Part shown: positions 1,306-1,428 of the stretch, piece by piece
How positions within the stretch are numbered: the stretch's first letter is position 1
How the letters are laid out: the number at the start of each line of letters is the position of its first letter
IMG/VR virus record: IMGVR_UViG_2529292735_000014
DNA from: a virus
Taxonomy: Duplodnaviria; Heunggongvirae; Uroviricota; Caudoviricetes
Length of the DNA stretch: 5,892 bases
Reading direction: 5' to 3' (one strand)
Program-made: the position numbers and the translations under genes
The notes under the pieces: generated by a model
What the model was told of the DNA's origin: nothing
Seen by the model: the letters and a program-made list of their open reading frames with translations, nothing else
Database searches by the model: none

Positions 1306-1401
1306 TGTGCGCAGAAAAAGCGCGTTTTTTTGTGCACGCACGGATCCTTGACGGATCCAGCCGCCACGCGGGCTGGAAGGGCAAAAATTCGTTCAAAAAA
1401 A

Positions 1402-1428
1402 TTGTGCAAATTTGTGCACTATTGTGCA
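1402..1428. repeat. three tandem TTGTGCA motifs at exactly 10-bp spacing (a fourth copy at 1330-1336); candidate protein-binding iterons
   Basis: ATTGTGCAAA / TTTGTGCACT / ATTGTGCAGC, with TTGTGCA at 1402-1408, 1412-1418 and 1422-1428. An extra TTGTGCAC sits at 1330-1337, right after a T7 run. Confidence 0.5.

What the first reader, a model, noticed from the sequence alone, without database searches (positions are those of the whole stretch)
1330..1428. Helically phased TTGTGCA iterons in the cos-proximal non-coding region
Three TTGTGCA copies sit at exact 10-bp spacing (1402, 1412, 1422), with a fourth at 1330-1336 just after a weak GC hairpin with a T7 run (1309..1331). A direct repeat of ACGGATCC (1340-1347 and 1351-1358) lies between them. 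One-helical-turn spacing implies a protein binding one face of the DNA. Candidates are terminase small-subunit recognition next to cos, a centromere for the ParR-like protein, or a repressor.
Basis: seen in the sequence. Interest (0 to 1): 0.5.

Follow-up and report, generated by a model that had tools for sequence, protein, structure and literature searches.

The report
Phased repeat boxes beside phage cos
The phased TTGTGCA repeats are real and are part of a packaging-site layout conserved across P2-like phages and their satellites, most likely a docking array for the DNA-packaging enzyme, and they mark exactly where the phage's swappable cargo region begins.

Summary
TTGTGCA sits at 1330, 1402, 1412 and 1422, and 0 of 2000 shuffles give any 7-mer three times at 9-12 bp spacing.

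The window is a P88-like (P2-family) prophage: portal, cos, cargo, then gene A. By homology to P2, the cohesive-end sequence is 1287-1305.

The same layout recurs in P2, 186, the satellite P4, about 110 viral contigs and about 70 prophages from many Enterobacterales genera:
- cos, a GC hairpin and a T-run;
- box 1 at about +25;
- a 72-bp spacer that varies in sequence but not in length;
- three boxes at about +97 to +124.

The box core is GTGCA with P88-clade terminases and ATGCA with P2/186-clade terminases. In P88, P2, 186 and P4 this is the genome's only such cluster. P4-like satellites and a second satellite-like element keep the boxes.

Sequence conservation stops exactly after the last box (1428|1429), where variable cargo begins.

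Best explanation: a cosB-like terminase recognition array. The ParR-centromere, repressor and cargo-promoter readings are not supported. Binding is inferred, not shown. I found no description of the distal boxes, but I could not read the 1990 paper that characterised P2/P4 cos.

The parts
1287..1305 (.). Predicted 19-nt cohesive-end (cos cleavage) sequence, GGGCTGTTCCCCCGTCACC. It is the homologue of P2 cos read on this strand (GTGCTTTCCCCGCCTCGCC).
   Evidence: It lies between the portal stop and the cargo, as in P2. It matches P2 at 13 of 19 positions. Relatives with P88-clade terminases carry CTTGCTCCCCCGCCTCGCC (16 of 19 to P2) at the same place. Entropy is zero from -18 to +14 in 78 portal-anchored loci. 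The assignment rests on homology; the physical ends were not determined.
1307..1331 (+). Short GC hairpin (GTGCGC..GCGCGT) followed by a T7 run. It corresponds to the hairpin-TTTT segment of the conserved cos core of P2 and P4.
   Evidence: Terminator-like site. The same hairpin plus T-run follows cos in P2, P4 and 186. Information content is high from -25 to +29 in 73 species-level loci.
1330..1336 (+). Box 1 (TTGTGCA, core GTGCA at +27..+31 from cos). It is the proximal box and the last element of the conserved cos core.
   Evidence: The equivalent ATGCA starts at +25 in 70 of 73 P2-type prophages and in 74 of 75 P4-like satellites.
1337..1401 (.). Spacer of conserved length but variable sequence. 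The starts of box 1 and box 2 are 72 bp apart. The spacer holds the ACGGATCC x2 repeats (1340-1347 and 1351-1358, with two GATC sites), a central inverted repeat and an A7 tract (1394-1400).
   Evidence: The spacing is 72 bp in 106 of 108 loci, across 56 distinct spacer sequences. It is also 72 bp in P2, 186 and P4.
1356..1377 (.). Central inverted repeat TCCAGCC / GGCTGGA, at about +52..+71.
   Evidence: repeat I15. An inverted repeat at the same position in 73 P2-type loci shows compensatory changes: 59.9% of cells are paired against 30-38% when partners are slid, the covariation score is 0.239 against 0.09-0.14, and 0 of 500 shuffles reach it. P2 itself lacks it.
1402..1428 (+). Boxes 2-4: TTGTGCA at 1402, 1412 and 1422, at 10-bp spacing, with cores at +99, +109 and +119 from cos.
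   Evidence: Equivalent ATGCA boxes start at +97, +107 and +116 to +120 in P2, 186, P4 and 73 prophages from many genera. This is the only such cluster in each of four complete genomes.
1428..1429 (.). Junction between the conserved backbone and the variable cargo, immediately after the last base of box 4.
   Evidence: Homology to P88-like phages ends at query position 469-470, which is window 1428-1429. The window aligns to P88 over 3-1428 and 2097-5892 only. Column entropy is at most 1 bit up to +123 and 1.4-2.0 bits from +124 onward in 78 loci. There are 69 different 40-mers after box 4 in 120 loci.

Best explanation
The four boxes are the accessory, binding part of the P2-family packaging signal, analogous to cosB of phage lambda. 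The window's signal reads: cos cleavage sequence (1287-1305), GC hairpin plus T-run, box 1 (1330-1336), a 72-bp spacer of fixed length (about seven helical turns) with a central inverted repeat and an A-tract, then boxes 2-4 at one-turn spacing (1402-1428).

Proposed mechanism (inferred): the phage terminase binds the boxes on one face of the DNA. The binding part would be the small subunit gpM, the N-terminal helix-turn-helix domain of the large subunit gpP, or both. The spacer bends or loops so that the distal boxes lie next to box 1. This nucleoprotein complex positions the nuclease on cos and marks this end (the right end of the P2 map) as the one held by terminase. By analogy with lambda, that end would be threaded into the prohead first.

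Because the array is needed in cis, it belongs to the backbone and fixes the edge of the neighbouring cargo hotspot.

Shown here: the sequence architecture, its conservation, its conserved geometry, its uniqueness per genome and its retention by satellites. Inferred: who binds, the looping, and the direction of packaging.
For: 1. The geometry is tied to cos, not to the cargo.
- Box 1 starts at +25 to +27.
- The distal boxes start at +97 to +99, +107 to +109 and +116 to +120 in the window, P2, 186 and P4. The spacers are unrelated in sequence.
- The box 1 to box 2 distance is 72 bp in 106 of 108 loci with 56 distinct spacers.

2. Unbiased samples show islands of conservation at the boxes.
- In 73 prophages from different species chosen by portal homology, information content peaks from -25 to +35 and again from +96 to +111. 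It is about 0 in most of the spacer and after +125.
- In 78 P88-type loci the boxes are near-invariant.

3. Satellites that must be packaged by a helper's terminase keep the whole array.
- P4-like satellites chosen by Psu homology have ATGCA at +25, +97, +107 and +120 in 73-74 of 75 loci. Only 2 of 20 box positions vary, against 34 of 91 positions outside the boxes.
- A different satellite-like element (L105, L120) has an integrase, a primase and a P2-family capsid gene. No portal homologue lies upstream of its cos (checked in both), and no terminase homologue either (checked in L105). It carries the P88-type cos with GTGCA boxes at 72-bp spacing.

4. The box dialect follows the terminase clade.
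- GTGCA loci have Q, P and M proteins 57-99% identical to P88 and about 45% (Q, P) or 35% (M) identical to P2.
- The portal-sampled prophages, 65-99% identical to P2 Q, carry ATGCA.
- The P2-type cos core occurs with both dialects.

5. The cluster is unique in each genome. The expectation of any such cluster per genome is 3-8%.

6. gpP carries an N-terminal HTH domain (PF06056/HTH_23) and gpM is a small-terminase family protein (PF05944).

7. One experimental hint: one P2-cosmid transduced at 0.035 against 1.7e-5 for another. The authors attributed the better one's efficiency to its longer regions flanking cos (PMC9594776).
Against: - No binding or packaging experiment was available. Conservation near cos does not identify the ligand.
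- The reported conserved cos core of P2/P4 is 55 bp, and it contains only box 1 (as cited in PMC9594776 and PMC9122126). The distal boxes may therefore be stimulatory rather than essential, or may serve another purpose.
- I could not read Ziermann and Calendar 1990, so I do not know how far their deletions extended.
- The correlation between box dialect and terminase clade rests on essentially one phylogenetic split and is confounded with everything else that differs between the clades.
- The gpP HTH and gpM are about equally diverged between clades (42% and 36-37% identity), so the data do not say which subunit reads the boxes.
- In P2 the last box overlaps the -35 region of the old-tin promoter, so a transcriptional role exists in at least one phage.
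- Box 4 is less fixed in position (+116, +117 or +120) in the P2-type sample.
Confidence: 0.6

Rival explanations
1. The boxes are an upstream regulatory element for the cargo: an activator or repressor array, an UP-like element or an insulator controlling transcription of whatever sits in the hotspot.
For: In P2 the third distal box (TTGAATGCA) overlaps the -35 region of the old-tin promoter, whose mapped starts are about 30 bp further on. In a subset of related loci a good TTGAC-N17-TAATTT promoter lies about 20 bp after box 4.
Against: - In this window the cargo is on the opposite strand and converges on the boxes, and no promoter-like site is found in 950-2150.
- Among 44 distinct junctions, the first long ORF after the boxes is on the - strand in 37.
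- In 186 the boxes lie beyond the last terminator, t95b, with no gene to drive.
- P4 keeps them downstream of psu.
- The distance is fixed relative to cos, not to any gene.
Confidence: 0.08
2. The repeats act through DNA mechanics or a host architectural protein, not through sequence-specific reading by terminase. Phased flexible TG/CA steps and A-tracts would give a bend, or a site for IHF, HU or Fis, that helps cos function or end handling.
For: - TGCA is a self-complementary tetramer with flexible steps, repeated once per turn.
- An A7 tract precedes box 2 and a T7 run precedes box 1.
- Spacer length is conserved rather than its sequence.
- TCAAAAAAATTG resembles the IHF consensus WATCAANNNNTTR with one extra base (read from the sequence; consensus from my own knowledge).
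Against: - Five to seven specific bases are conserved in each of the four boxes.
- Two phage clades that infect the same host species use different dialects (ATGCA and GTGCA), which argues for a phage-encoded reader.
- The IHF-like match is off by one base, and P2-type relatives do not conserve the tract.
Confidence: 0.12
3. The boxes function at the DNA end inside the virion or on entry, for example by anchoring the last-packaged end in the portal or tail, or in ejection or circularisation, rather than in recognition for packaging.
For: All boxes lie within about 125 bp of one mature chromosome end and on one side only. Satellites that use the helper's heads and tails would need such a feature too.
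Against: No known system of this kind uses phased short repeats. I found no data on which P2 end is packaged last.
Confidence: 0.06
4. The boxes are a preferred crossover point for cargo-cassette exchange. This would be a recombination site and would explain why every cargo begins exactly after box 4.
For: The junction is at the same base in 78 portal-anchored loci and in about 44-69 different cargoes. Rousset et al. speculate that cos-adjacent ends promote exchange at this hotspot (PMC9122126).
Against: - A sharp junction is equally expected if everything up to box 4 is essential in cis and genome size is limited.
- P4 keeps the boxes although its hotspot is on the other side of cos.
- No copy of the boxes is seen at the other cassette border (2096|2097).
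Confidence: 0.06
5. The repeats are the centromere (parC) for the ParM/ParR pair in the cargo, or an operator for the phage immunity repressor.
For: A bona fide ParM (PF06406 and PF21523) and a ParR/StbB-like protein (PF10784) are encoded 0.7-2 kb away. Phased direct repeats are typical of centromeres.
Against: - 27 of 60 loci that cover the whole interval from cos to gene A have the boxes but no ParM or ParR.
- P2, 186 and P4 have boxes and no par genes.
- The boxes are downstream of the par operon, beyond another gene.
- A better candidate centromere lies just upstream of parM: two 42-nt repeats, each holding a 20-nt inverted repeat, at 3427-3542.
- TTGTGCA does not cluster anywhere else in P88, including the immunity region.
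Confidence: 0.02

Closest known systems
cosB of phage lambda (R3-I1-R2-R1 sites for the small terminase subunit gpNu1, with an IHF bend)
   Same: Several copies of a short element lie on one side of the nicking site. They are spread over about 100 bp, with one copy close to the cut and the others brought near by a bend. The array is required in cis and defines the end that terminase holds. (Properties of lambda are from my own knowledge.)
   Different: - The boxes are 5-7 bp direct repeats, not 16-bp R sites of which one is inverted.
- No convincing IHF site is present.
- The P2-type large subunit has its own HTH domain.
- There is no sequence similarity.
- Binding is not demonstrated here.
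The 55-bp conserved cos core of P2 and P4 (Ziermann and Calendar 1990, as cited in PMC9594776 and PMC9122126)
   Same: The predicted cos, the hairpin, the T-run and box 1 of the window correspond to this core. The conserved block from -25 to about +30 is recovered.
   Different: Boxes 2-4 lie 70-100 bp beyond the core, separated from it by non-conserved sequence. They are not annotated in the detailed reference records of P2, 186 or P4. The window uses GTGCA instead of ATGCA and a diverged cohesive-end sequence.
pac site of phage P1 (clusters of hexanucleotide repeats flanking the cleavage region, with Dam methylation control)
   Same: It is a packaging site built from two groups of very short repeats separated by a spacer. 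The window's spacer also holds two GATC sites. (The P1 repeat structure is from my own knowledge. Dam control of pac cleavage is the title of a reference listed in PMC10359639.)
   Different: P1 packages by the headful mechanism and cuts between the repeat clusters, and its repeats themselves contain GATC. Here both groups of boxes lie on one side of cos, and P4 lacks GATC in the spacer.
Plasmid and phage iterons and parC-type centromeres
   Same: They are short direct repeats at about one helical turn, read by an oligomerising DNA-binding protein.
   Different: The boxes are not linked to a replication initiator or an origin: the P2 ori lies inside gene A, and P4 has its own ori and crr repeats. 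They are also not linked to par genes.

Membership tests
P2-family cos site | A 19-nt G+C-rich cohesive-end sequence homologous to P2 cos, located between the portal gene end and the right-end accessory region | tested here: met
   Window 1287-1305 matches P2 at 13 of 19 positions, in the same position and orientation. Close relatives show 16 of 19. The block is invariant in 78 loci.
P2-family cos site | A conserved flank next to cos: a short GC hairpin, a T-run and then a (A/G)TGCA motif | tested here: met
   Window 1307-1336 against P2, P4 and 186. Information profile.
P2-family cos site | Staggered cleavage by terminase at this sequence, giving 19-nt 5' cohesive ends | not testable with these tools
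   This needs virion DNA end mapping. One public record of a close relative (LR595891) starts at the position equal to window 1384. That is inside the non-conserved spacer and probably arbitrary.
cosB-like terminase binding array | Repeated elements on one side of the cleavage site, at a fixed distance from it, conserved among phages that share a terminase type | tested here: met
cosB-like terminase binding array | Retained by satellites that depend on the helper's terminase | tested here: met
   P4 and 75 P4-like loci. Satellite-like elements L105 and L120.
cosB-like terminase binding array | Bound by a terminase subunit and required for efficient packaging | not testable with these tools
   There is only an indirect hint that longer cos flanks improve cosmid transduction (PMC9594776).
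cosB-like terminase binding array | A host-factor (IHF) site or other bend between the proximal and distal elements | tested here: inconclusive
   The IHF-like match is off by one base. A-tracts and T-tracts and a covarying central inverted repeat are present, but P2 lacks the inverted repeat.
ParMRC centromere (parC) | A repeat array that co-occurs with parM/parR and lies upstream of parM at its promoter | tested here: not met
   The boxes are present without par genes in 27 of 60 loci and in P2, 186 and P4. They lie downstream of the operon. No promoter is found.
Replication iterons | Repeats next to an origin or initiator gene, shared only by elements with the same initiator | tested here: not met
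   The boxes are shared by gpA phages and by primase-based satellites. The P2 origin is annotated inside gene A.
Operator or promoter of the cargo | Overlap with a promoter that drives the adjacent genes | tested here: not met
   No promoter-like site is found in 950-2150. The adjacent cargo converges on the boxes here and in 37 of 44 junction types. The feature is met only in P2 itself, at the old-tin promoter.
Described RNA families (Rfam) | A match reaching a family's gathering score | tested here: not met
   Nothing was found in 1280-1460. There were only two sub-threshold matches elsewhere in the window.

The most novel reading that the evidence does not exclude
The P2-family packaging signal has a second, so far unannotated module: three phased boxes held exactly 72 bp from a proximal box. 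Its sequence dialect (ATGCA or GTGCA) would set which terminase clade, and therefore which helper, can package a genome. Satellites of at least two unrelated kinds copy the module of their helper. The module's outer edge also fixes, to the base, where the anti-phage cargo hotspot begins.
Probability: 0.35. Interest if true: 0.65.

Novelty: new member of a known kind. Interest (0 to 1): 0.5.

Why it matters
If the boxes are the terminase docking array, several things follow.
- They give the P2/P4 system, a classic helper-satellite pair, a defined lambda-like cosB. Its spacing rules and a possible specificity code can be tested directly.
- They explain why the defence-gene hotspot of P2-like phages begins at one exact base.
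- They suggest how satellites match their helpers.
- They tell people who build P2/P4 cosmids and phage-like delivery particles which roughly 145 bp to include.
- They help annotation: the layout locates cos in P2-like prophages and satellites without any experiment.

Tried and rejected
- **Rfam**, at a permissive threshold, found nothing at the locus.
- **The promoter scan** found none in 950-2150. A weak terminator-like site on the - strand, made from two boxes plus the T7 run (1419..1404), is specific to this clade and is not seen in P2-type relatives, so I dropped it.
- **PADLOC** gave no defence-system match for the three cargo proteins.
- **Literature.** I could not obtain Ziermann and Calendar 1990, Christie and Calendar 2016 or Odegrip et al. 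2006. Text searches found no description of the distal boxes. They also gave no statement of which P2 end is packaged first. The supplement of PMC9594776 holds no cos sequences.
- **Which subunit reads the boxes.** I compared divergence of the gpP HTH and of gpM between the two clades. They are equally diverged, so the test is uninformative.
- **More distant P2-like phages** (SopEPhi, a Ralstonia phage, a K139-like phage, ESSI2_ev239, YenM_42.18). An exact-5-mer scan found a comparable array only in Burkholderia phiE202, where I could not verify the cos position.
- **Alternative cos position at 1365-1383**, suggested by the start of record LR595891. I rejected it because that stretch is poorly conserved and would be inverted relative to P2.
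- **Host-factor motifs** (CRP, DnaA box, sigma-54, marbox). I compared these by eye from memory. None fits all four boxes, and they were not tested further.

Full report
**What the window is**

The window is a piece of a P2-family prophage of the P88 (Xuanwuvirus) type. On the + strand it has the 3' part of the portal gene Q, with its stop at 976. The rest is on the - strand:
- an Ead/Ea22-like gene (2060..1596);
- a ParR/StbB-like gene (2434..2123);
- parM (3398..2439);
- the replication gene A (from 5791 down to 3431).

The non-coding stretch 977-1595 lies where P2 has its cos site, between Q and the accessory 'old/tin' region. The window aligns to phage P88 over 3-1428 and 2097-5892. The segment 1429-2096 is a different cassette.

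**Check of the observation**

- TTGTGCA at 1330, 1402, 1412 and 1422, with spacings of 72, 10 and 10 bp;
- ACGGATCC at 1340 and 1351;
- a GC hairpin plus T-run at 1307-1331.

The count of four copies alone is unremarkable: 1.66 are expected, and 20 of 200 shuffles reach four. The phased triple is not chance. None of 2000 Markov shuffles of the window holds any 7-mer three times at 9-12 bp spacing.

**Where cos is**

P2's cohesive end, read on the window's strand, is GTGCTTTCCCCGCCTCGCC. It is followed by a small GC hairpin, TTTT and AATGCAC. The window has GGGCTGTTCCCCCGTCACC at 1287-1305, followed by a GC hairpin, T7 and GTGCAC.

Relatives with the same terminase clade carry CTTGCTCCCCCGCCTCGCC at that place, which matches P2 at 16 of 19 positions. 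The block is invariant in 78 portal-anchored loci. I therefore take 1287-1305 as cos, by homology.

One public record of a close relative starts at the base equal to window 1384. That stretch is poorly conserved and would be inverted relative to P2, so I regard the start as arbitrary.

**The same architecture in P2, 186 and P4**

Downstream of cos all three have, on the same strand, ATGCA starting at +25 and three more ATGCA starting at +97, +107 and +119 or +120. The spacers between them are unrelated in sequence. In the window the GTGCA cores start at +27, +99, +109 and +119.

The distance from box 1 to box 2 is 72 bp in all four. In each of the complete genomes of P88, P2, 186 and P4, the only same-strand cluster of three such pentamers within 26 bp is this one. 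Simulated genomes contain any such cluster in only 3-8% of cases.

The heavily annotated reference records of P2, 186 and P4 list no feature there.

**Breadth of conservation**

A scan of viral contigs for the exact triple returned at least 120 loci. About 110 of them are P2-like cos regions. That sample is biased for the triple. It is not biased for box 1, for the 72-bp spacing (106 of 108 loci, 56 different spacers) or for what follows.

Three unbiased samples were then taken.

1. Eighty prophages from different species, picked by portal homology. They include Escherichia, Enterobacter, Serratia, Pectobacterium, Yersinia, Erwinia, Rahnella and Pantoea. In the 73 with a recognisable cos, ATGCA starts at:
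   - +25 in 70;
   - +96 or +97 in 50;
   - +106 or +107 in 58;
   - +116, +117 or +120 in 65.

   Information content is high from -25 to about +35, near zero in most of the spacer, rises again from +96 to +111, and is zero after about +125.
2. Seventy-eight P88-type loci picked by portal homology. All box cores are near-invariant. Box 4 reads TCGTGCA in a minority, so the core is GTGCA.
3. Seventy-five P4-like satellites picked by Psu homology. ATGCA is at +25, +97, +107 and +120 in 73-74 of them. Only 2 of 20 box positions vary, against 34 of 91 outside the boxes.

**The junction with the cargo**

Homology between the window and P88-like phages stops at 1428|1429, the last base of box 4. 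In the 78 portal-anchored loci, column entropy is at most 1 bit up to +123 and 1.4-2.0 bits from +124 on. In the 120 loci, 69 different 40-mers follow box 4.

This is the cos-proximal defence hotspot described by Rousset et al. (PMC9122126). The boxes are the last bases of the backbone.

**Rejecting the par and transcription readings**

The cargo does encode a true ParM and a ParR/StbB-like protein. However, among 60 loci that cover the whole interval from cos to gene A, 27 have no ParM or ParR and still have the boxes. Where parM is present, it lies 0.4-2.2 kb from them. P2, 186 and P4 have boxes and no par genes.

A better centromere candidate sits directly upstream of parM: two 42-nt repeats, each holding a 20-nt inverted repeat (3427-3542).

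The evidence against a promoter or operator role is as follows:
- No promoter-like site exists in 950-2150.
- The neighbouring cargo converges on the boxes here and in 37 of 44 junction types.
- In 186 the boxes lie beyond the last terminator.
- Only in P2 does the last box overlap a promoter, the -35 region of old-tin. That fits a cargo that starts immediately after box 4.

**Why terminase is the best candidate**

The array is positioned relative to cos, not relative to any gene. It is unique in each genome. Elements whose only shared need is to be packaged by a P2-type terminase also keep it.

Besides P4, a second and unrelated satellite-like element (L105, L120) carries a complete P88-type cos with GTGCA boxes at 72-bp spacing. 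It encodes integrases, a primase, a MazF-like toxin, a P2-family capsid protein and a possible scaffold. No portal homologue lies upstream of its cos in either locus, and no terminase homologue in L105, the one I checked for it.

The dialect follows the terminase clade. All GTGCA loci have Q, P and M proteins of the P88 clade, and the portal-sampled prophages with a P2-like Q carry ATGCA. The P2-type cos core itself occurs with both dialects. This amounts to one evolutionary split, so it is weak evidence on its own.

Both terminase subunits are plausible readers. gpP has an N-terminal HTH domain and gpM is a small-terminase family protein. Their divergence between clades does not discriminate between them.

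**Other features of the spacer**

An inverted repeat near +50 to +70 (window 1356-1377) is supported by compensatory changes across 73 loci, although P2 lacks it. An A7 tract precedes box 2 and a T7 run precedes box 1. The two ACGGATCC copies supply two GATC sites 11 bp apart. These features suggest a bent or looped spacer, but that is inference.

**What is known and what may be new**

The literature I could read describes a 55-bp conserved cos core shared by P2 and P4 (PMC9594776, PMC9122126). That core corresponds to -25 to about +30 and includes box 1.

One cosmid study attributed much better transduction to longer flanks around cos: one P2-cosmid reached 0.035 against 1.7e-5 for another. 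I found no description of the distal boxes, the 72-bp rule or the two dialects. I could not read the original 1990 paper, so prior description cannot be excluded.

**Verdict**

The finding is real and non-random. It is an instance of a family-wide cos-associated array, most likely a cosB-like terminase recognition module (confidence about 0.6). The ParR-centromere and repressor readings are rejected. I rate it as a new member of a known kind, of moderate interest.

Noticed in passing
window 677-700 and about 5781-5820: Relative to phage P88, the portal gene changes reading frame near 690 and gene A changes frame near 5800. Either the prophage is decaying or the sequence has indel errors.
   Followed up: partly
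window 3427-3468 and 3501-3542: Two 42-nt direct repeats (81% identical, 74 bp apart) lie immediately upstream of parM and overlap the 3' end of the gene A reading frame. Each contains a 20-nt inverted repeat (ACGGGATTC..GAATCCCGT). This is a more likely centromere or promoter region for the ParM/ParR pair.
   Followed up: partly
window 1429-2096, with hairpins at 1430-1455 and 2097-2114: The Ead/Ea22-like gene is a cassette absent from P88. A hairpin with arms CAGGGCGA/TCGCCCTG lies at one end of the cassette, and a second hairpin with the same arms lies just outside the other end. This may mark where cassettes recombine, or these may be duplicated terminators.
   Followed up: no
window 1340-1358: The ACGGATCC direct repeat supplies two GATC (Dam) sites 11 bp apart in the spacer. 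A GATC near +37 to +40 appears in the consensus of the P2-type relatives but is absent from P4-like satellites.
   Followed up: no
window 1356-1377; alignment A2: The inverted repeat in the middle of the spacer shows compensatory changes across 73 prophages (59.9% paired against 30-38% in slid controls). Some lineages extend it to 12-14 bp arms. P2 itself lacks it. Its role is unknown.
   Followed up: yes
L120 1-12700 and L105 1-4500: This is a satellite-like element. It has a MazF-like toxin, a P2-family major capsid protein with an N-terminal extension, a coiled-coil protein, then cos plus GTGCA boxes, then an integrase, a Toprim primase, a repressor-like protein and a P4-type integrase. No portal homologue lies upstream of cos in either locus, and no terminase homologue in L105.
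   Followed up: partly
L109 8000-10700: This is a more distant element. A small-terminase-like gene lies upstream of cos. Between it and cos, abutting cos, lie two ORFs whose sizes fit a capsid and a scaffold gene (not identified). No portal gene lies between, and a P4-type integrase lies downstream. Next to cos it has both AAAATGCAC and TTTTTTGTGCAC.
   Followed up: no
L213 3260-3350 (Burkholderia phage phiE202): There are seven copies of GTCCC, the first four at about 11-bp spacing, downstream of the portal gene and a toxin-antitoxin pair. They are preceded by an inverted GGGAC. This may be an analogous array with a different motif. The cos position was not verified.
   Followed up: partly
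L001 end and L124 end (LR595891, positions 1 and 37100): The linear record of the close relative P88_4B11 is opened between the bases equal to window 1383 and 1384. That is inside the variable spacer and not at the predicted cos.
   Followed up: partly
L017, L022, L049/L064, L107: Unrelated viral contigs also carry TTGTGCA three or more times at 10-bp spacing in quite different contexts, for example a long TTGTGCAGTT array in L022. They are not P2-like cos regions.
   Followed up: no
window 1003-1027: A perfect 11-bp inverted repeat (CGGGGCATAAA/TTTATGCCCCG) lies 27 bp after the portal stop. It is in the position of the P2 tQ terminator.
   Followed up: no
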